Shown here: positions 1-7,726 of the stretch, piece after piece
Position numbering within the stretch: position 1 is the stretch's first letter
Layout of the letters: the number at the start of each line of letters is the position of its first letter
Assembly (NCBI GenBank): GCA_037917675.1
Contig: JAVCBW010000047.1
Span: 1-11,238, forward strand
DNA: 11,238 bases
Source of the DNA: Thermoproteota archaeon
GTDB lineage: Archaea > Korarchaeota > Korarchaeia > B14-G2
Direction: 5' to 3'
Program-made: the position numbers and the translations under genes
The notes under the pieces: generated by a model
Database searches by the model: none
What the model was told of the DNA's origin: nothing
The model's input: only the letters and a program-made list of their open reading frames with translations

Positions 1-594
1 CATCACGTGCTCTATCCAGAACACAGTGATCCCCAGCTCCTTCCTTATTCTCCTTATCAACTCCATTGCCTCTATAGTTTCCGTGGGATTTAAGCCTGCT
101 ATCACTTCATCAAGAAGCACTACTTCAGGCCCTGTAGCTAGAGCTGTAGCTACTTCAAGCATTTTCCTCTCAACTAGGGTTAGACTCCTAGCTAGCATAT
201 CTCTCTTCTCTGACAGCCCCACGAACTCAAGGTAGTATTTTGCCTCCTTCTTAGCTTCCTGGACGCTGATGGAGCTTTTACCCCCGAATAAGACGCCACA
301 TACAACGTTGTCTAAAGCTGACATATCTAGGAATGGACGTACTATCTGGAAGGTTCTTGCTATCCCGAGCTTACAGATTTCATGTGGGCTAAGCCCAGTT
401 ATATCTCTACCCTTGAACAATACTTTACCAGACTCAGGTCTGTAAACGCCTGTAATAACGTTAAAGAGAGTGGTCTTACCTGCTCCATTTGGCCCTATTA
501 ACCCGACTATCTCGTCTCTTCTGACCTCAAAATCTACATCCCTCAGCGCAGCTAGCCCTCCGAAGTATTTGGTCAGCTTTATCCCCTCTAGCAT
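1..594 (-). CDS. livG: HAAT/branched-chain amino acid ABC transporter ATP-binding subunit, LivG-type (3' end runs off the window)
   Basis: Not in the ORF track; hand translation from ATG 594: MLEGIKLTKYFGGLAALRDVDF..., Walker A GPNGAGKTT, Q-loop IARTFQIVRPF, Walker B/D-loop VLLDEVIAGLN, H-loop FWIEHVM at the window edge. Open for 198 codons; SD-like AGGAGGGTG at 610-602. Confidence 0.95.
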   Translation of the reverse strand, partial: MLEGIKLTKYFGGLAALRDVDFEVRRDEIVGLIGPNGAGKTTLFNVITGVYRPESGKVLFKGRDITGLSPHEICKLGIARTFQIVRPFLDMSALDNVVCGVLFGGKSSISVQEAKKEAKYYLEFVGLSEKRDMLARSLTLVERKMLEVATALATGPEVVLLDEVIAGLNPTETIEAMELIRRIRKELGITVFWIEHVM

Positions 595-656: not shown

Positions 657-664
657 TTTATAAA
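657..664. promoter_or_regulatory. Palindromic TATA box TTTATAAA between divergent livG and livH
   Basis: Exact match to the archaeal TATA consensus, self-complementary, 26 nt upstream of ATG 691; the best TATA candidate in the 96-nt intergenic gap. Confidence 0.65.
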
Positions 665-690
665 TGCATCTACTTAAGCCTGGAGATAAC

Positions 691-1566
691 ATGGTTCCAT
701 GGGATTATATTGTGAGACAGCTGTTCTATGGGCTTGTATCTGGGTGCATGTATGCCTTGATGGCAGCTGGACTCTCTTTGATATTCGGTGTGATGAAGAT
801 GTTGAACTTTGCACATGGAGAGTTCTATATGATAGGGGGTTATGTCATCTACTTTCTGGTTGTTAAATTCGGAGTAGACCCTATGCTGTCAATTTTCTCT
901 GCTTTGATAGCTGCCTTCCTGACAGGCATGCTAATTGAGAGAGTATTCTTAAGGCCTCTGTTTGGGAGGCCTGCCTGGGATCTAAGCGCTCTCACGGTCA
1001 CGATAGGGCTATCGATATTCCTCCAGAACTTCGCCTTAGTCTTTTGGGGAGAGAAGTATAAGAGAATTCCAGAGTATATTGCTGGGACAGTCAGCATATA
1101 TGGTATACCTATTAGCCTACAGAGGGTGCTCGTTGTAGTTGGCTCGCTTTGTCTGATAGCTGTACTATGGGGAGTACTCCATAGGACCATGTTTGGGAAA
1201 GCTATAAGGGCTGTTGCACAGGATCCTGATGCAGCTTCCTTGATGGGGATAAATCCGAGGAAGATATTTATGCTGACATATGCGATAAGCTGCATGCTTG
1301 CTGCATTCGCGGGAGCATTGCTCTCTCCTATATTCATGGTCTATCCTACGATGGGGGCATCTCCATTTCTTAAGGGGTTCTGTGTAGCGATATTCGGTGG
1401 GCTTGGGAGCTTCGAGGGAGCTGTATTAGGTGGTATGTTGCTTGGGTTAGCTGAGGTAGCAGGGATAGCCTTATTTGGTGCTGAGTGGAGGGATGTCATC
1501 GCTTTCACCTTGCTTATACTTACACTAGTTTTCAAGCCATCTGGGTTGCTTGGGCGTGGTGAGTAG
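691..1566 (+). CDS. livH: HAAT ABC transporter permease, LivH-type
   Basis: Motifs YALMAAGLSLIFGVMKMLNFAHGEF, GKAIRAVAQDPDAASLMGIN, FGGLGS, KPSGLLG; multiple hydrophobic helices. Start placed at ATG 691 (GGAGA at 682-686) because the ORF-track ATG 664 overlaps the TATA box. Confidence 0.93.
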   Translation: MVPWDYIVRQLFYGLVSGCMYALMAAGLSLIFGVMKMLNFAHGEFYMIGGYVIYFLVVKFGVDPMLSIFSALIAAFLTGMLIERVFLRPLFGRPAWDLSALTVTIGLSIFLQNFALVFWGEKYKRIPEYIAGTVSIYGIPISLQRVLVVVGSLCLIAVLWGVLHRTMFGKAIRAVAQDPDAASLMGINPRKIFMLTYAISCMLAAFAGALLSPIFMVYPTMGASPFLKGFCVAIFGGLGSFEGAVLGGMLLGLAEVAGIALFGAEWRDVIAFTLLILTLVFKPSGLLGRGE

Positions 1567-1567
1567 T

Positions 1568-2563
1568 ATGAGCATCTATGGTGGTGTCTCTAAGCTTAAG
1601 TCTGCTGTCAGAGAGTACCCGAGAGCAATCCTGCTGTTATTTGCATTGTATCTCATACCTCTGTTCATCAGAAGCCCCTACATACTGCACCTCATGGTGT
1701 TAGGCTACATATATGCGATCTTGACTACTAGCTGGGATCTCGTATGTGGGTATACAGGGATATTCAGCTTTGCTCACGCTGCATTCTGTGGCATCGGAGC
1801 ATACACGTCATCACTCCTCTCCATGAGAATGGGAATAAACCCTTGGCTAACAATTTTAGTTGGGAGCTTAACTTCAACAGGCATAGGATTTCTCATAGCT
1901 CTCCCATGTCTTAGGCTGAGAGGGCCGTATATAGTGATTGTGACTCTAGCCTTCAGTGAGATAGCTAGGATAACATGCTCGAACCTAGTGGATATAACAA
2001 GGGGAGAGCTTGGCTTATGGGGGATCCCTCCTCTTCTGCAGGTTAGTGGGCGTAGAGAATACTACTATCTCATAGCTCTAAGCTTCTTTGCAGCCACATT
2101 ACTGTCTCTATATGCTTTAATAAGATCGAAGATGGGGTATGCTCTCTCAGCTATAGGGCAGGATGAGCTTAAGGCTAGGAGCATAGGGATAAATGTCACA
2201 GAGTATAAGCTGCTTGCATTCTCTATTAGTGCCTTCTTCGCAGGGCTAGCTGGAGGGCTTTATGCCCATTATGTGCTCCTCCTGGTACCAAGTGCCATAT
2301 TGAGCTTAGGGCTCATGGTTGAAATCATGACGATGAGCCTTATAGGAGGTTTAAAGTCTCTTGTAGGACCAGCTATAGGATCTTTTCTCCTCGTCTTTAT
2401 CTCAGAGTACCTGAGAGCTATAGGGCCATATAGGTTCTTGATATATGGCTTACTCATCATGGTTATCGTTATTTGGGCTCCTAGTGGCATGGTGCTGGCG
2501 GTAAGGAAGGTAGGTGACCTGATTGGGCTGACTAAGCCCATAGTGTGGAAGGGTCAAAAATAG
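1568..2563 (+). CDS. livM: HAAT ABC transporter permease, LivM-type
   Basis: Motifs GYTGIFSFAHAAFCGIGAY, LRLRGPYIVIVTLAFSE, DELKARSIGIN, AGLAGGLYAHY, IGGLKSLVGP. Start placed at ATG 1568, 1 nt after the livH stop and preceded by GGTGA (1558-1562), rather than TTG 1550. Confidence 0.93.
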   Translation: MSIYGGVSKLKSAVREYPRAILLLFALYLIPLFIRSPYILHLMVLGYIYAILTTSWDLVCGYTGIFSFAHAAFCGIGAYTSSLLSMRMGINPWLTILVGSLTSTGIGFLIALPCLRLRGPYIVIVTLAFSEIARITCSNLVDITRGELGLWGIPPLLQVSGRREYYYLIALSFFAATLLSLYALIRSKMGYALSAIGQDELKARSIGINVTEYKLLAFSISAFFAGLAGGLYAHYVLLLVPSAILSLGLMVEIMTMSLIGGLKSLVGPAIGSFLLVFISEYLRAIGPYRFLIYGLLIMVIVIWAPSGMVLAVRKVGDLIGLTKPIVWKGQK

Positions 2564-2575: not shown

Positions 2576-3856
2576 CTAAAGCCAGGGGGGTACTTTCCAT
2601 TCAGCTTGCTTACACCATTCAGGCCATACTACTACGTTCTTTCCACCCACTATCTGATACATTAGCTGGGGCATGTACTCTGGACCTGGGAGCACTTCAT
2701 GGTTGTCTTTACCGAACACAAACTTCCCTAGCGGGCCTACATACTCCATGGTTAGCAGGGTTTCAGCTATTTTATCCTTATCTAGAGTCCCAGCTTTCTC
2801 TATAGCTTCGAATAGCATCATTAGAGGAGCATACCCATATGCAGCGTCTGCTGTAGCCTTTTCTCCAGGCCACCTTTTCTCGTAGTCTCTTATGAACTGC
2901 TCTGATGGAGGGTGGCCTGGGATCAGCGCCATTGAAGAGCACCAGGTCACGTACTCAGCTGCTTCTCCACACTGGGGTATGTACTCTGCCTTAACTGGAT
3001 AGTAGTTCCCATAGAAAACTGCTTTAACCTTAGCTTCCTTAAACTGCTTTGTTAGAGCTACACCTGATGCTAGAGATGTCAGTATGGACCAGACCATATC
3101 AGGTTTCTTCTCTGCTATGTCAGCAAGAACCGGGTAGAAGTCGGTCTCCCCAACGGGTACTACGTGCTTAGCTACGACTTTGAACCCTATCTTCTCGAAT
3201 TCCTTAGCTACAGCTTCACTAACAGTCCTACCATAGTCTGTATCCTCTAGGATCAGAGCTATCGTCTTTGTCTTAGGCTTAAACAGGCCCTTTTCTATTA
3301 TGTACTTTGTGAAGGAGGCGAAGGCTATCCCATAAGCTGATCCATTGACGTCGCATTTGAAGAAGTACTTGTACTTCTCTGGGTTCTCAAGCACCTTCTT
3401 TGATATAGCTGAGCTGACTGGCTGCATGCTTATCGCGAGGATCCCGTATTTCGCGTAGACTTCCATTGCAGCCAAGGTTACTGAGGAGTGTAGGTGTCCA
3501 CATATGAAGTCTACTTTCTCCTTTGTAATGAGCATCTCAGCTACGCTGACTCCGACCTCAGGCTTTGACTGAGTGTCTGCGAACACGAGCTCGACTTTCA
3601 GCCTCCTTCCGAGCTCCTTTACATAGATCCCGCCCTTCTCATTTACTTGCTCCATGGCGAGTATAGCTCCTCTCTTCATGGCTAAGCCTGTCTCGGCAGC
3701 TGGACCTGTCAGTGGAAGTGGTACACCTATCTTTATAACCTCCTTCGGTGGGGGACGTGTAGTTAACCAGGCATAGTAGCCGCCTACAGCCACTACTATA
3801 ATGACTATTACAGCGAGGACTACAGCTTGCACCTTCGTCAAAGCTCTCCTAGACAT
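2576..3856 (-). CDS. HAAT ABC transporter substrate-binding protein (LivJ/LivK-like type I fold), membrane-anchored
   Basis: IKIGVPLPLTGPAAETG, ADTQSKPE, GHLHSS, EDTDYGR, GETDFYPVL, AIEKAGTLD are typical of the family; N-terminal hydrophobic anchor followed by a PPP linker. Start is ATG 3856 (MSRRA...) or upstream at 3871/3877; the ligand is unknown. Confidence 0.9.
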   Translation of the reverse strand: MSRRALTKVQAVVLAVIVIIVVAVGGYYAWLTTRPPPKEVIKIGVPLPLTGPAAETGLAMKRGAILAMEQVNEKGGIYVKELGRRLKVELVFADTQSKPEVGVSVAEMLITKEKVDFICGHLHSSVTLAAMEVYAKYGILAISMQPVSSAISKKVLENPEKYKYFFKCDVNGSAYGIAFASFTKYIIEKGLFKPKTKTIALILEDTDYGRTVSEAVAKEFEKIGFKVVAKHVVPVGETDFYPVLADIAEKKPDMVWSILTSLASGVALTKQFKEAKVKAVFYGNYYPVKAEYIPQCGEAAEYVTWCSSMALIPGHPPSEQFIRDYEKRWPGEKATADAAYGYAPLMMLFEAIEKAGTLDKDKIAETLLTMEYVGPLGKFVFGKDNHEVLPGPEYMPQLMYQIVGGKNVVVWPEWCKQAEWKVPPWL

Positions 3857-3898
3857 TTTTATCCATCTCATATGCATCCTGTGTCTCCACCAGTACTT

Positions 3899-5237: not shown

Positions 5238-6176
5238 CTATGGTACTACCAGCGCTAGAACCGCTTTCTCAGTATGCATTCTGTTCTCAGCTTGATCCCA
5301 GACTACTGAGTGGGGGCCTTCTATGATGTCATCAGTTATTTCCTCGCCTCTATAGCATGGGAGACAGTGCATGAATATGAAGTCTTCTTTAGCAAACTTT
5401 ACTACCTCAGAGTTTATCTGATATGGGGCGAAGTCTCTTATCCTCTTCTCCTTTTCCCTCTCAGGCCCACCCATGCTATGCCATGTGTTGGCGTATATCA
5501 CGTCAGCTCCCTTTAAGGCTTCTTCTAGGTCTTCTGTTATCACTACCTCAGCTCCACTCCTCTTAGCTTGATCTTCTGCAAACTCCATTATCCTCTTATC
5601 AGGGTCATATCCCTTTGGTCTAGCAACGTAGATGTTTATCCCAAACATGCTTGATGCTACGATTAGGCTGTGACAGACATTCCATATGTCTCCAGCGTAA
5701 GCGAGTTTTATGCCCCTTAACCTCCCCTTCTTCTCTCTTATTGTGAGCAGGTCTGCTAGAGCCTGACATGGATGTGTCAGGTCTGTTAGAGCATTTATCA
5801 CAGGGCCCTTCATGTATCTAGCGTACTCCTCTACCCTCTCCTGCTCAAATGTTCTTATCACGAGCGCATCGCAGTATCTGTCTATTACCCTAGCAGTGTC
5901 CTTGATAGGCTCTCCTCTAGCAAGCTGCATCTCATCAGGCCTCATGTAGAAGCTTTGGGCTCCGAGGTGGGCTATTGCAGCCTGGAAGGACGTTCTAGTC
6001 CTGGTTGAAGGCTTCTCGAATATCATGGCGATAGTCCTCCCCTTCAGGTATTCGTGAGGAGTTCTACTAGCCCATAGCCTCTTAAACTCACTTGAGACAT
6101 CAAGCATATACTCTACTTCCTCTCTAGTATAGTCCATGAGAGTTAGGAAATCTCTACCTCTGAACTTCCATCTCAA
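5238..6176 (-). CDS. Ornithine carbamoyltransferase-family transcarbamylase with a variant acceptor site
   Basis: Carbamoyl-phosphate motifs FEKPSTRTR, HPCQALAD, MHCLP and QAENR are intact; the SMG loop reads YANTWHSMG. Start placed at TTG 6176 (GAGGGTG at 6188-6182), giving 312 aa. Pipelines would call it argF; the symbol is withheld because of the Asp-to-Asn change. Confidence 0.9.
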   Translation of the reverse strand: MRWKFRGRDFLTLMDYTREEVEYMLDVSSEFKRLWASRTPHEYLKGRTIAMIFEKPSTRTRTSFQAAIAHLGAQSFYMRPDEMQLARGEPIKDTARVIDRYCDALVIRTFEQERVEEYARYMKGPVINALTDLTHPCQALADLLTIREKKGRLRGIKLAYAGDIWNVCHSLIVASSMFGINIYVARPKGYDPDKRIMEFAEDQAKRSGAEVVITEDLEEALKGADVIYANTWHSMGGPEREKEKRIRDFAPYQINSEVVKFAKEDFIFMHCLPCYRGEEITDDIIEGPHSVVWDQAENRMHTEKAVLALVVP

Positions 6177-6206
6177 GCTGCCACCCTCACATCTGAGAAG
6201 AATGCC

Positions 6207-6215
6207 TATTAAAAA
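6207..6215 (-). promoter_or_regulatory. TATA-like box TTTTTAATA for the transcarbamylase-M20 unit
   Basis: AT-rich box 30 nt upstream of TTG 6176 in the divergent intergenic region; lies inside the ORF-track N-terminal extension, which argues against the 6227 start. Confidence 0.45.
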
Positions 6216-6319
6216 GATATCCCTCATCCTTCTGAAGAACCCGTCTCTTAGCCGGCTTTTCTCGCTCTAGCCGTTTTAGCTTCCACTAGCACTTACAGTG
6301 AGCCATTAAGCTAGTTACT

Positions 6320-6329
6320 CTTAAAAAGC
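6320..6329 (+). promoter_or_regulatory. TATA-like box CTTAAAAAGC upstream of the aminotransferase
   Basis: 27 nt upstream of ATG 6357; identical to the box at 3908-3899 on the minus strand. Confidence 0.5.
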
Positions 6330-6356
6330 TAGATGTCTTGAGGGAGCTGTGGGAGC

Positions 6357-7726
6357 ATGGAGTTTTCAGATATGCATTTCTCTGAAGCTCCTCTGATAAA
6401 GGTCGACCCTCCTGGGCCAAGAGCTAGGGAGCTTATTGAGATGCAGCTGAAGCTTGAAAGCAATGCTGTCCTTTACCCTAGGAAGGTTCCCCTAGTAATT
6501 GATGAAGCTAAGGGAGCAACAATCAGGGATGTAGATGGGAACATCTACATAGATTTCTTTAGTGGGATTTCAGTGCTCAACTTCGGGCATTCAAATCCTG
6601 TTATAGTTGAGGCAGCTAGAAGGCAGCTAGAGAAGCTAGCTCACGCATTAGACTTCCCAACTGAGCCTAGACTAGAGCTTACAAAGCTCCTTAGAGATAT
6701 AGCTCCATTAGGCCTTAAGGGTAGATGTAAGGTCTTATATGGTGGGCCGACAGGATCAGATGCTATTGAAGCAGCTGTTAAGCTTGCTAAGTATAACACA
6801 AGGAAGCATGGGCTACTAGCCTTTGAGGGCTCCTATCATGGCCAGACAGCAGCAGCTCTCTCACTAACAAGCAGCAGAAGCTTCAAGGACAAGTACATAC
6901 CTATGCTACCTGAAGTCCACTTCTCACCTTATGCTTATTGCTATAGATGCCCACTAGGCTTAAGCTATCCTGAGTGTAGCATACAATGTGTCCGCTACCT
7001 GGAGAAGAGGCTGAAAGACCCATACTCAGGGCTACCTGATTTAGCTGCGATCATCGTAGAGCCTGTGCAAGGTGAAGGAGGGGTAATAGTCCCACCAGAC
7101 GAGTTCCTGAAGGAGGTGAGGAGGATAGCAAGCGAGCACTCAATCCCCTTAGTTATTGACGAGATACAAGCAGGTCTCTGCCGCACTGGAAAGATATTTG
7201 CATGTGAGCACTATGAAACTACGCCAGATGTAATGACATTAGCAAAGTCTCTCGGGGGTGGGATGCCGCTAGCAGCTTGCCTCTATAGAGAAGACTTAGA
7301 TACATGGGAGCCAGGAAGCCATCTTGGGACGTTCAGAGGACATGCAGTAGCTATGGCAGCAGGGGTAGCTGCTATGAAGTTCATGTTAGACTATAAGCTG
7401 TGGGAGCATACAGCTTCTCTAGGAGAGTTAGCTATCAAGAGACTAGAGGAAGTGGCTAGTGAGAGCGAGGTAGTAGGTGATGTTAGAGGAAAGGGGCTTA
7501 TGCTAGCGTTAGAGCTTGTAAAGGACACGAGGACAAAGGAACCTTGGCCTGATGGGGTGAAGAGAGTCCAGAGAGAGTGCTTTAGAAGGGGAGTCATAGT
7601 CTGGACAGCAGGACACTATGGAAATGTAGTGAGGCTGCTTCCACCACTCGTGATAACGAGGATCTCTTAGAAAAGGGGCTAGACATCCTTTCAGAAGTCA
7701 TCAGGTCGGTGGAGCATGAGATCTAA
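6357..7726 (+). CDS. Class III PLP aminotransferase, diaminobutyrate-2-oxoglutarate transaminase (Dat/EctB)-like; frameshifted near the 3' end
   Basis: DVDGNIYIDFFSG, GPTGSDAIEAAVKLAK, FEGSYHGQT, EPVQGEGG, DEIQAGLCRTG, PLP lysine in TLAKSLGGG (K297), WEPGSHLGTFRGH. As given, the frame stops at 7670; the expected terminal helix EDLLEKGLDILSEVIRSVEHEI continues in the -1 frame from 7658 to TAA 7724-7726. Confidence 0.88.

What the first reader, a model, noticed from the sequence alone, without database searches (positions are those of the whole stretch)
5469..5693. Transcarbamylase lacks the conserved ornithine-binding Asp (NTWHSMG) and has GDIWN for GDGNN
Seen: YANTWHSMG (Asn codon 5489-5487, residue 230 from the TTG start), YAGDIWNV (Trp codon 5684-5682) and HCLPCYRG, with all carbamoyl-phosphate motifs intact. 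Known: OTCs have DxxxSMG, whose Asp binds the ornithine alpha-amino group, and changes in this loop mark other specificities (N-acetyl/N-succinyl-ornithine, putrescine, YgeW types). I do not recognise this combination as any of those types. Inference: the acceptor has a neutral, acylated or missing alpha-amine, or a shorter chain such as DABA; possibly a new transcarbamylase subfamily.
Basis: partly seen in the sequence, partly recalled or inferred. Interest (0 to 1): 0.72.

Follow-up and report, generated by a model that had tools for sequence, protein, structure and literature searches.

The report
Asp-less ornithine-transcarbamylase-like catabolic enzyme family
This gene is labelled ornithine carbamoyltransferase but belongs to a large, unstudied sister family, found in sediment archaea and bacteria, that has lost the residue gripping ornithine's alpha-amino group and probably splits a citrulline-like compound to make ATP.

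Summary
The gene at 5238-6176(-) encodes N230 (AAC), W165 and HCLPCYRG with intact carbamoyl-phosphate motifs, and contigs of two public runs read the same.

It is not an error. 239 of 243 relatives in hand carry NTxxSMG, and they form a clade (support 100) sister to canonical OTCs plus putrescine carbamoyltransferases.

Of the five published ornithine ligands, only the alpha-amino-binding Asp is changed. The Asn of GDIWN that binds ornithine is kept.

Genomes with this type usually also hold a canonical OTC, and some hold a putrescine type as well.

In 123 related loci the gene lies near:
- non-canonical deiminases of the arginine-deiminase/DDAH fold (55 loci);
- carbamate kinase (19);
- class-III aminotransferases (39);
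- Liv-type ABC importers (at least 20).

The short deiminases keep both carboxylate-binding Arg residues. They have Tyr or Lys where DDAH has its alpha-amino-binding Asp.

Best reading: a catabolic carbamoyltransferase for a citrulline-like ureido acid whose alpha-amine is missing or blocked. In this genome the substrate is probably imported. It remains unidentified.

Earlier scan notes on other DNA called similar modules ordinary citrulline or agmatine pathways; I could not check that they are the same family, and my tests disagree with both readings.

The parts
5238..6176 (-). Carbamoyltransferase of the Asp-less ('N-type') OTC-sister clade, 312 aa from the TTG start (the ORF extends to an ATG at 6227)
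   Evidence: PF02729+PF00185; TIGR00658 412 bits (cut-off 280.85). Clade membership.
5487..5489 (-). Asn230 codon (AAC), in place of the ornithine alpha-amino-binding Asp (E. coli D231) of DxxxSMG
   Evidence: Role of D231 from PMC4581275 (passages read).
5679..5684 (-). Trp165-Asn166 of GDIWN. Asn166 aligns with the ornithine ligand Asn167 of E. coli OTC and is retained. Trp165 replaces the preceding Asn.
   Evidence: N168 by Met-inclusive numbering is invariant in A2.
5346..5369 (-). HCLPCYRG (residues 270-277). Clade signature is HCLP[GAC]Y[RW]G against HCLPAHRG in canonical OTCs.
   Evidence: This loop is part of the active centre in PTC/OTC (PMC3282769).
5994..6014 (-). K55-P-STRTR. The carbamoyl-phosphate motif is intact, and so is the Lys two residues before it that pairs with the ornithine carboxylate.
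   Evidence: PMC3282769 and PMC4581275.
3955..5226 (-). ArgE/DapE-family M20 deacylase, 11 bases downstream of the carbamoyltransferase on the same strand (probably co-transcribed)
   Evidence: PF01546+PF07687; TIGR01910 315 bits (cut-off 217.6); NF009558 372 bits (below its 428 cut-off).
2576..3877 (-). Liv/UrtA-type substrate-binding protein (Peripla_BP_6), same strand, with an N-terminal membrane anchor
   Evidence: PF13458 212 bits. No NCBIfam model reaches its cut-off.
664..2563 (+). Two Liv-type ABC permease genes (664-1566 and 1550-2563)
   Evidence: 37-43% identical to permeases next to N-type genes in L007, L013 and L043. Those are PF02653.
1..594 (-). Liv-type ABC ATPase, cut by the window end
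   Evidence: 47-52% identical to the ATPases of the same transporters in L007, L013, L043 and L053. No family scan was run on it.
6357..7670 (+). Class-III (omega-amine) aminotransferase, divergent from the carbamoyltransferase across 6228-6356
   Evidence: PF00202 338 bits. Best NCBIfam hits (DABA and acetylornithine aminotransferase families) are below their cut-offs.

Best explanation
The gene encodes a member of an unstudied clade, sister to ornithine plus putrescine carbamoyltransferases, that databases name ornithine carbamoyltransferase. It keeps the whole carbamoyl-phosphate site and the parts that hold the substrate's carboxylate (Lys55, Asn166, Ser-Met-Gly). It has replaced the Asp that salt-bridges the alpha-ammonium of ornithine with Asn, and it has co-varying bulky or aromatic changes in three active-site loops (GD[IV]WN, NTW[HW]SMG[GK]PE, HCLP[GA]YRG).

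Inferred mechanism: it works in the catabolic direction. It phosphorolyses a citrulline-like omega-ureido carboxylic acid whose alpha-amino group is absent or blocked. Candidates are 5-ureidovalerate or 4-ureidobutyrate (absent), or an N-alpha-acyl- or N-alpha-carbamoyl-citrulline (blocked). The products are an omega-amine and carbamoyl phosphate, and carbamate kinase turns the latter into ATP.

In many relatives the ureido acid is made next door from the matching guanidino acid by a non-canonical deiminase. In this genome no such deiminase is found, and the substrate is probably imported by the adjacent Liv-type ABC transporter. The amine product would then be handled by the divergent class-III aminotransferase. 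The co-transcribed M20 deacylase would remove a blocking or second group.

Shown: the sequence features, the clade, the coexisting paralogues and the gene neighbourhoods. Inferred: the direction of the reaction, the nature of the substrate, and the roles of the M20 enzyme and the aminotransferase.
For: 1. Active site. Of the published E. coli OTC ornithine ligands K53, N167, D231, S235 and M236 (PMC4581275), four are kept and only D231 is changed to Asn. 119 of the 150 best 50%-cluster representatives carry D-x-x-x-SMG.
2. Clade. 43 N-type sequences plus 4 further Asp-less variants form one clade (SH-aLRT 100). All 37 D..SMG OTCs and 3 PTC-like sequences fall in the sister clade (SH-aLRT 95, 91 rows, ATCase root).
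3. Extra paralogue. The window's genome also has an OTC with DTWFSMG (343 bits), plus argG and an argH-like gene. The same-genus genome G001 has that OTC but no N-type. Class relatives carry N-type, OTC, PTC-like and ATCase together. 4 of 5 other N-type genomes hold a canonical OTC that scores higher.
4. Catabolic context over 123 N-type loci: a deiminase of the arginine-deiminase/DDAH fold in 55 (adjacent in 38), carbamate kinase in 19, class-III aminotransferase in 39, Liv-type binding protein in at least 20, aldehyde-oxidising or -reducing enzymes in 21. Deiminase and Liv importer never occur together (0 of 123). In the complete genome G004 the N-type gene is directly followed by carbamate kinase (436 bits, cut-off 358) and faces a Liv-type transporter. 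The window's genome has a carbamate kinase (377 bits).
5. Partner deiminases are non-canonical. The 451-aa type scores 91-98 bits against arcA (cut-off 489). The roughly 285-aa type reaches no equivalog cut-off.
6. Two-enzyme signature. All 14 aligned short deiminases keep the catalytic Cys and His, the guanidine-binding Asp and both carboxylate-binding Arg residues. They have Tyr (10) or Lys (4) at the position of human DDAH1 Asp73, which binds the alpha-amino group (PMC10958460).
7. ArgE/DapE-type M20 genes from several subfamilies recur in 11 of 123 loci as well as in the window. YgeW with YgeY is a published precedent for a carbamoyltransferase and an M20 enzyme sharing a di-ureido acid (PMC12990295).
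Against: - No assay exists, so the substrate is entirely inferred.
- Four of five ornithine ligands are kept, and Asn could still hydrogen-bond an alpha-amine, so citrulline/ornithine is not excluded.
- The protein scores well above NCBI's OTC cut-off (412 against 281).
- The nearest characterised relatives of the partner deiminases act on arginine derivatives.
- An aminotransferase plus an aldehyde dehydrogenase would also fit ornithine breakdown.
- In the window itself there is no deiminase and no adjacent carbamate kinase. A carbamoyl-phosphate synthetase gene lies 1.7 kb away, which could hint at a biosynthetic role.
- 31 of 123 loci show none of the four marker genes.
- Neighbourhood labels rest on my own ORF calling and on BLAST to Pfam-annotated representatives. 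Loci are not independent: some are near-duplicates, and many are cut by contig ends.
- The transporters and aminotransferase subtypes beside the gene are heterogeneous, so the clade may not have one single substrate.
Confidence: 0.6

Rival explanations
1. It is simply a catabolic (or second anabolic) ornithine carbamoyltransferase. Citrulline is imported or made by a divergent arginine deiminase and is split to ornithine plus carbamoyl phosphate. Asn230, with the nearby Trp, His and Tyr, still holds the alpha-amine.
For: TIGR00658 scores 412 bits, above its cut-off. K53, N167, S235 and M236 equivalents are kept. The deiminase, carbamoyltransferase and carbamate kinase layout is that of the arginine deiminase pathway. 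Class-III aminotransferase with ALDH fits ornithine to glutamate (L036). An earlier scan note (e1-969816) read a similar module as an ordinary citrulline-to-ATP module.
Against: The Asp is replaced in 239 of 243 clade members (the other 4 gave no motif match), whereas 119 of the 150 nearest cluster representatives outside keep it. The clade is separate from all D..SMG OTCs sampled. Canonical OTCs coexist in the same genomes. The partner deiminases are far below the arcA cut-off and lack the alpha-amino-binding Asp.
Confidence: 0.2
2. It is a biosynthetic enzyme. With the neighbouring CarB it would carbamoylate an N-alpha-acylated ornithine, made by the acetylornithine-aminotransferase-like gene. 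The M20 enzyme would then deacylate the product to citrulline. This would be a convergent copy of the Xanthomonas/Bacteroides acyl-ornithine route (that route is recalled, apart from the family names in PMC4581275).
For: The window holds, within 8 kb, a class-III aminotransferase whose second-best NCBIfam hit is the acetylornithine aminotransferase family, an ArgE/DapE deacylase, the carbamoyltransferase and CarB. Loss of the alpha-amine ligand would suit an acylated amine.
Against: CarB is on the same strand but is separated from the carbamoyltransferase by the opposite-strand aminotransferase gene, and it accompanies none of the other 123 N-type loci. Carbamate kinase, deiminases and importers are the recurrent partners. 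The genome already has an OTC plus argG and an argH-like gene. The same-genus genome lacks the N-type gene. NF003384 (AOTC) scores 191 bits, below its 288 cut-off.
Confidence: 0.1
3. It is a putrescine carbamoyltransferase of an agmatine-deiminase-type pathway with a swapped deiminase, as an earlier scan note (e1-354217) read a deiminase, carbamoyltransferase and permease cluster.
For: TIGR04384 (PTC) is the third-best NCBIfam hit at 299 bits. Deiminase, carbamoyltransferase and permease trios are common among relatives.
Against: All three published PTC signature traits fail (PMC3282769): the Lys before STRT is present, SMG is present instead of (Y/W)(G/W)(V/L/I)X, and there is no C-terminal helix extension. 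299 bits is below the 500 cut-off. Genuine PTC-like paralogues (FEEPSTRTR, DLWWWVG) coexist with N-type in the same genomes. The partner deiminases keep both carboxylate-binding Arg residues.
Confidence: 0.03

Closest known systems
Ornithine carbamoyltransferase (EC 2.1.3.3; closest solved structure Pyrococcus furiosus OTC, 1PVV/1A1S)
   Same: Same two-domain fold family (PF02729+PF00185). Matched at 365 bits over residues 23-328 of the 329-aa ORF. STRTR, HPxQ, HCLP, Lys53, Asn167 and SMG equivalents are all present. It scores above the TIGR00658 cut-off.
   Different: The alpha-amino-binding Asp of DxxxSMG is Asn. GDGNN becomes GD[IV]WN, xSMG becomes [HW]SMG, and HCLPAHRG becomes HCLP[GAC]YRG. 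It forms a separate sister clade. It occurs as an extra paralogue beside a canonical OTC. Its context is non-canonical deiminases, carbamate kinase and importers rather than arginine biosynthesis or arcABC.
Putrescine carbamoyltransferase of the agmatine deiminase pathway (Enterococcus faecalis PTC)
   Same: An OTC-derived enzyme that runs catabolically after a deiminase and feeds carbamate kinase. Its specificity was changed through the SMG/230 loop (PMC3282769, abstract and passages read).
   Different: PTC drops the carboxylate grip (no Lys, and YGLY instead of SMG) but keeps the Asp. This clade does the opposite: it keeps the carboxylate grip and drops the Asp. It has no C-terminal helix 13.
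N-acetyl- and N-succinyl-ornithine carbamoyltransferases (AOTC/SOTC)
   Same: Carbamoyltransferases for ornithine with a blocked alpha-amine, paired with an ArgE-type M20 deacylase. That pairing is recalled. The families themselves are described in PMC4581275.
   Different: Those are knotted enzymes with a different 240s loop, and they are distant in sequence (NF003384 191 bits, below its 288 cut-off; PDB AOTC hits at about 140 bits). They are biosynthetic. If this clade takes N-acyl substrates, it does so by convergence from the OTC side.
YgeW carbamoyltransferase, YgeY M20 hydrolase and YqeA carbamate kinase of reductive urate breakdown
   Same: A carbamoyltransferase and an M20 amidohydrolase share a ureido acid whose second nitrogen is blocked (2,3-diureidopropanoate), and one carbamoyl group goes to ATP (PMC12990295, passages read).
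   Different: YgeW is a knotted, distant family (83-97 bits here, cut-offs 453-500). The ring-opening enzymes of the urate pathway are not recurrent neighbours of this clade.

Membership tests
Ornithine carbamoyltransferase (OTC) | Carbamoyl-phosphate site motifs STRTR, HPxQ and HCLP | tested here: met
   STRTR at 57, HPCQ at 135, HCLP at 270. These columns are invariant in alignment A2.
Ornithine carbamoyltransferase (OTC) | DxxxSMG motif whose Asp (E. coli D231) binds ornithine | tested here: not met
   NTWHSMG, with Asn230 at the Asp column. 239 of 243 clade members are the same; the other 4 gave no motif match. Motif and role from PMC4581275.
Ornithine carbamoyltransferase (OTC) | The other ornithine ligands: Lys53, Asn167, Ser235, Met236 | tested here: met
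   all four columns are conserved in the window protein.
Ornithine carbamoyltransferase (OTC) | Curated HMM score (TIGR00658) | tested here: met
   412.1 bits against a cut-off of 280.85. This is why databases name it OTC.
Ornithine carbamoyltransferase (OTC) | Groups with known OTCs in a tree | tested here: not met
   the N-type clade (SH-aLRT 100) is sister to the clade that holds E. coli ArgI, all D..SMG sequences and the PTC-like ones. This was a quick search with limited sampling.
Ornithine carbamoyltransferase (OTC) | Activity with ornithine or citrulline | not testable with these tools
   Needs an enzyme assay or complementation.
Putrescine carbamoyltransferase (PTC) | No Lys two residues before STRT | tested here: not met
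   FEKPSTRTR. The Lys is present in all 235 clade sequences that cover the site. Criterion from PMC3282769.
Putrescine carbamoyltransferase (PTC) | (Y/W)(G/W)(V/L/I)X in place of xSMG, and a C-terminal helix extension of about 20 residues | tested here: not met
   SMG is present and the protein ends level with canonical OTCs. TIGR04384 scores 298.7 bits, below its 500 cut-off.
N-acetylornithine / N-succinylornithine carbamoyltransferase | Curated HMM (NF003384); knotted fold with a proline-rich loop | tested here: not met
   191.5 bits, below the 288 cut-off. The fold was not modelled.
Deiminase-type ATP-yielding pathway (deiminase + carbamoyltransferase + carbamate kinase) | All three genes together | tested here: inconclusive
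   Met in relatives: L006, L026, L047, L059 and L108 have all three in one locus. In the window's genome the carbamoyltransferase is here and carbamate kinase is on another contig. No PF02274 gene was found in a genome that is 92.7% complete.

The most novel reading that the evidence does not exclude
The clade is the carbamoyltransferase of an undescribed, widespread anaerobic 'guanidino-acid deiminase pathway'. In this reading a guanidino carboxylic acid without a free alpha-amine (for example 4-guanidinobutyrate or 5-guanidinovalerate) is deiminated by a new type of deiminase. The ureido acid is then phosphorolysed by this enzyme to GABA or 5-aminovalerate plus carbamoyl phosphate, giving one ATP. 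The amine goes on through an omega-aminotransferase and an aldehyde oxidoreductase. That would make it the first omega-amino-acid carbamoyltransferase and a third substrate-level ATP route of the arginine/agmatine-deiminase kind, used by Bathyarchaeia, Nitrososphaeria relatives, Chloroflexota, Desulfobacterota and Bacillota in sediments.
Probability: 0.33. Interest if true: 0.8.

Novelty: new variant of a known kind. Interest (0 to 1): 0.68.

Why it matters
Hundreds of sequences from sediment, peat and hot-spring archaea and bacteria are annotated as ornithine carbamoyltransferase and pass NCBI's curated cut-off. Yet they lack the Asp that defines ornithine recognition, and they sit in catabolic, ATP-yielding gene sets. 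If the substrate is a new ureido or guanidino acid, three things follow. Metabolic reconstructions of abundant uncultured lineages such as Bathyarchaeia and Chloroflexota would mis-assign arginine metabolism. A further fermentative ATP source from nitrogen-rich detritus would have been overlooked. The transcarbamylase family would gain a new specificity class that is the mirror image of the putrescine enzyme. The matching loss of the alpha-amine ligand in two consecutive enzymes gives a directly testable, short list of candidate substrates.

Tried and rejected
- Sequencing error at 5489: rejected. The motif is conserved in relatives, and contigs of two runs, possibly the source, are identical.
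- RNA evidence: no RNA holder was listed, so nothing can be said on expression.
- PTC identity: rejected on the three published signature traits.
- AOTC and YgeW identity: below their cut-offs.
- Conserved synteny with the window's own neighbours: the first look showed M20, CarB and the binding protein are not generally conserved next to relatives. An unbiased clustering of neighbours was needed.
- CarB linkage: seen only beside canonical OTCs of Bacillaceae-type loci (L054-L057).
- Link to the reductive urate pathway: its ring-opening enzymes are not recurrent neighbours. It is kept only as a precedent for a carbamoyltransferase paired with an M20 enzyme.
- Literature: searches for 4-ureidobutyrate, ureidovalerate, GABA or aminobutyrate carbamoyltransferase and guanidinobutyrate deiminase, guanidino acids with deiminase and carbamoyltransferase, and acetylcitrulline or acetylarginine with carbamate kinase and deiminase found no description of such a pathway in the held library. 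Subscription papers were not searched.
- PMC6022934 held none of my terms.
- The role of P. aeruginosa ADI Asn160 could not be checked (one search found nothing). It is recalled only, so the argument from the 451-aa deiminase type is weaker.
- ESM Atlas: all neighbouring clusters are auto-named OTC, which is uninformative.
- The 50%-identity representative library collapses the clade to a few rows, so it gives no family size.
- NCBIfam and Pfam on recurrent unknown neighbours: nothing useful.
- No structure was predicted. The tools return no coordinates and offer no relevant ligand, so pocket geometry and chain length remain untested.
- Dropped rows: 3 of 80 metagenome loci (L157, L160, L163), where my ORF filter did not pick the carbamoyltransferase. 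Also L060 (29% identity) and the 10 canonical-OTC loci among the 57 genome loci.
Full report
**Observation**

The minus-strand ORF 5238-6227 is a two-domain aspartate/ornithine carbamoyltransferase (PF02729 + PF00185). Counting from the TTG at 6176, which is the start of the 312-aa form on record (P0002) and the start that fits relatives:
- residue 230 is Asn (AAC, 5489-5487) in YANTWHSMG;
- residue 165 is Trp (TGG, 5684-5682) in YAGDIWNV;
- HCLPCYRG begins at 270;
- FEKPSTRTR (S57) and HPCQ (135) are intact.

Contigs of two public DNA runs cover the gene without a differing letter. They may be the source of this DNA, so the real proof that this is not an error comes from relatives. All 120 best homologues (70-78% identity) have NT[WFYS]HSMG. 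Of 243 clade sequences collected from three searches, which may overlap, 239 have N-T-x-x-SMG and the other 4 gave no motif match.

**What exactly is changed**

A review of the family names K53, N167, D231, S235 and M236 (E. coli numbering) as the ornithine ligands, with D231 in the DxxxSMG motif (PMC4581275, passages read). I fetched E. coli argI from the annotated K-12 record and aligned it with the window protein, other clade members and canonical OTCs (A2).

Lys, the ligand Asn, Ser and Met are all conserved in the window protein. Only D231 is replaced, by Asn.

The clade has co-varying changes in three active-centre loops (counts are out of the 243 sequences):
- GD[IVLP][WYF]N: 223.
- NT[WF][HW]SMG, followed by GPE (127) or AAE (62).
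- HCLP[GAC]Y[RW]G: 202 HCLPGYRG, against HCLPAHRG in canonical OTCs.

The Lys two residues before STRTR is present in all 235 sequences that cover it. The putrescine enzyme paper states that this Lys pairs with the ornithine carboxylate and is absent from PTC, where SMG is replaced by (Y/W)(G/W)(V/L/I)X and a C-terminal helix is added (PMC3282769). None of these three PTC traits is present here.

The pattern is thus the mirror image of PTC: the carboxylate grip is kept and the alpha-ammonium grip is lost.

**A separate clade and an extra paralogue**

Among 57 loci from reference genomes there is a sharp break:
- 46 loci at 56% identity or more all have the Asn form.
- 10 loci at 52% or less have DVW[AT]SMG with HCLPAHR[GE].
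- One remote hit (L060, 29% identity) was set aside.

In a maximum-likelihood tree of 91 rows rooted on ATCases (quick search, LG+G4), 43 Asn-type sequences plus four further Asp-less variants (P0122-P0125) form one clade (SH-aLRT 100). All 37 D..SMG sequences, including E. coli ArgI, and three PTC-like sequences form the sister clade (SH-aLRT 95). Archaea and bacteria are interleaved inside the Asn clade. The window's protein is closest to Bathyarchaeia and deltaproteobacterial sequences (about 75% identity). The Asn-type genes of its own class are only 58% identical (NTWWSMG/HCLPAYRG). This suggests horizontal transfer.

The window's genome (1.78 Mb, 92.7% complete) has a second OTC-like gene with DTWFSMG next to housekeeping genes, plus argG and an argH-like gene. 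The same-genus genome G001 has that OTC but no Asn type. Class relatives carry the Asn type, an OTC type, a PTC-like type (FEEPSTRTR, DLWWWVG) and an ATCase side by side. In 4 of 5 other Asn-type genomes a canonical OTC is present and scores higher against TIGR00658. Every search here labels the family OTC: it scores 412 bits against a cut-off of 281, the source names are OTC, and the Atlas cluster names are OTC.

**Gene neighbourhoods**

The window's own neighbours are not generally conserved. I therefore clustered all ORFs within 6 kb of the gene in the 46 genome loci and annotated representatives. I then labelled 77 of 80 metagenome loci by similarity to these. Three loci were dropped because my ORF filter missed the gene.

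Over 123 loci:

| Neighbour | Loci | Notes |
|---|---|---|
| Deiminase of the arginine-deiminase/DDAH ("pentein") fold | 55 | adjacent in 38 |
| Class-III aminotransferase | 39 | |
| Aldehyde:ferredoxin oxidoreductase, ALDH or Fe-ADH | 21 | |
| Liv-type binding protein with its ABC transporter | at least 20 | |
| Carbamate kinase | 19 | TIGR00746 394-436 bits, cut-off 358 |
| Saccharopine-dehydrogenase-like | 14 | |
| ArgE/DapE M20 | 11 | |

Deiminase and Liv importer never share a locus (0 of 123). This suggests two supply modes: make the ureido compound from a guanidino compound, or import it.

Among the 68 loci with at least two ORFs on each side, 36 have a deiminase and 56 have at least one of deiminase, carbamate kinase, aminotransferase or Liv binding protein. 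In the complete genome G004 the Asn-type gene is immediately followed by carbamate kinase and faces a Liv/UrtA-type transporter.

In the window's genome:
- carbamate kinase lies on another contig (377 bits);
- no PF02274 gene is found;
- tblastn with the short deiminase finds nothing.

The window therefore belongs to the import mode. The carbamoyltransferase, the M20 gene and the binding protein are on one strand. The two permease genes and an ATPase gene lie beyond the binding protein, and a class-III aminotransferase is transcribed divergently from the carbamoyltransferase.

These counts rest on simple ORF calling and BLAST labels. Some loci are near-duplicates and many are truncated.

**The partner deiminases**

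There are two types, and neither is a known enzyme.
- The 451-aa type scores 91-98 bits against arcA (cut-off 489).
- The roughly 285-aa type hits ADI and DDAH models far below their cut-offs.

In human DDAH1 the alpha-amino group is held by Asp73 and two backbone carbonyls, the guanidine by Asp79, and the carboxylate by Arg145 with Arg98 nearby (PMC10958460, passages read). P. aeruginosa DDAH has the same residues at a constant offset of 13: D60, D66, R85 and R132, counted on the alignment.

In the 14 aligned short deiminases (A1), the equivalents of Asp79, Arg98, Arg145, the catalytic His and the catalytic Cys are invariant. The Asp73 position is Tyr in 10 and Lys in 4.

The 451-aa type also keeps the TRD motif and both Arg residues when aligned with P. 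aeruginosa ADI. It has no Asp or Asn at the position of ADI Asn160. The role of Asn160 is recalled from memory, because my search for it found nothing.

So two consecutive enzymes keep their carboxylate ligands and have both lost the acidic or polar ligand of the alpha-ammonium. This is the strongest indirect evidence that the pathway's substrate is an arginine/citrulline-like acid without a free alpha-amine.

**Which substrate**

This is not settled.

For a missing alpha-amine (5-ureidovalerate or 4-ureidobutyrate, giving 5-aminovalerate or GABA):
- the pocket changes add bulk rather than room;
- the frequent partners are GABA-type aminotransferases, aldehyde oxidoreductases, Fe-ADH, an ALDH (L036) and a CoA-transferase (L011), which is the classic route for omega-amino acids.

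For a blocked alpha-amine (N-alpha-acyl, aminoacyl or carbamoyl):
- ArgE/DapE-type M20 deacylases from several unrelated subfamilies have been recruited repeatedly, including the co-transcribed one in the window;
- one pair of loci adds a Dpp-type binding protein (L137, L139);
- YgeW with YgeY is a published precedent for a carbamoyltransferase and an M20 enzyme dividing a di-ureido acid (PMC12990295).

My rough odds:

| Substrate class | Odds |
|---|---|
| Alpha-amine missing | 0.35 |
| Alpha-amine blocked | 0.25 |
| Plain citrulline | 0.2 |
| Something else (homocitrulline, D-isomer, methylated amine, or several substrates across the clade) | 0.2 |

Transporter types and aminotransferase subfamilies vary between lineages, so a single substrate for the whole clade is not assured.

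**Comparison with what is known, and novelty**

The architecture is that of the arginine and agmatine deiminase pathways: deiminase, carbamoyltransferase, carbamate kinase. The enzyme is an OTC relative. New here are the specificity class, the two deiminase types and the apparent substrate.

I found no description of such a pathway or enzyme in the searchable library. Subscription literature was not covered. No solved structure belongs to the clade; the best PDB hits are all Asp-bearing OTCs.

Earlier notes of this scan on other DNA described similar modules. One was read as an "ordinary citrulline-to-ATP module" (e1-969816). Another was read as an agmatine pathway with a swapped deiminase and an altered ornithine loop (e1-354217). 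I could not confirm that these are the same clade, and my tests speak against both readings for this family.

**Verdict**

This is a real, widespread, mis-annotated transcarbamylase subfamily, most likely catabolic, with an unidentified citrulline-like substrate.

Noticed in passing
Own genome G000:C56:5391-6344(+) (L092); relatives L075, L078, L079, L082, L086, L089: The lineage's apparent housekeeping OTC keeps DTW[KVF]SMG. It has HC[QL]PW[YF][IL]G instead of HCLPAHRG, and GDG[SAG]AN with one extra residue. It lies among FtsY, prefoldin and FtsZ genes rather than arginine genes.
   Followed up: partly
L074 (G004), L077 (G006), L083 (G028): Class relatives carry a paralogue that fits the published putrescine carbamoyltransferase signature (FEEPSTRTR, DLWWWVG, HCLPA[AG]RGM). 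These archaea probably also run an agmatine-deiminase-type pathway.
   Followed up: partly
L006:6470-7474(+). By similarity labels also L026, L108, L130, L146, L148.: In L006 a second, ATCase-like carbamoyltransferase (TIGR00670 261 bits) sits between carbamate kinase and the short deiminase, beside the Asn-type gene. Two different carbamoyltransferases share one kinase. In the other loci the second gene was labelled by BLAST only. This resembles the twin-transferase modules noted earlier in the scan.
   Followed up: partly
L031:876-6806: A Dehalococcoidales locus lines up three paralogous short deiminases, an arginase-family gene and a DUF1989 gene directly upstream of the Asn-type carbamoyltransferase. 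It looks like a hub for guanidino compounds.
   Followed up: no
L125:3830-5284(-), L150, L151; L007:1618-2259; L149:239-1414: MttB-family methyltransferase, B12-binding and URO-D/MtaA-like genes recur near some Asn-type loci. An earlier scan note also paired an MttB homologue with a similar module. A methylated amine on the substrate is conceivable.
   Followed up: no
L143:6062-6862(+) and 7 more loci (L124, L125, L133, L134, L136, L168, L170): A protein of about 266 aa with no Pfam or NCBIfam match recurs in 8 of 77 metagenome loci, in 7 of them alongside the carbamoyltransferase/451-aa deiminase pair (L168 shows no deiminase). A 318-aa unknown follows the amino-acid permease in 6 loci.
   Followed up: partly
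P0122-P0125, P0127 (50%-identity cluster representatives): P0122-P0125 fall inside the Asn clade in the tree. Their loops have diverged further (NTFHSMA with HCGPAYVG; GITFVSMT; ALTWYAMG; GNTFHP). P0127 (GNTWHSIG), a 228-aa fragment left out of the tree, looks similar. The Asp-less radiation is broader than the NTWHSMG core.
   Followed up: partly
window 5238-6176 compared with G001 and genus g2: The window's gene is about 75% identical to Bathyarchaeia and deltaproteobacterial copies but only 58% to the copies in its own class. It is absent from the same-genus genome. This points to recent horizontal acquisition.
   Followed up: partly
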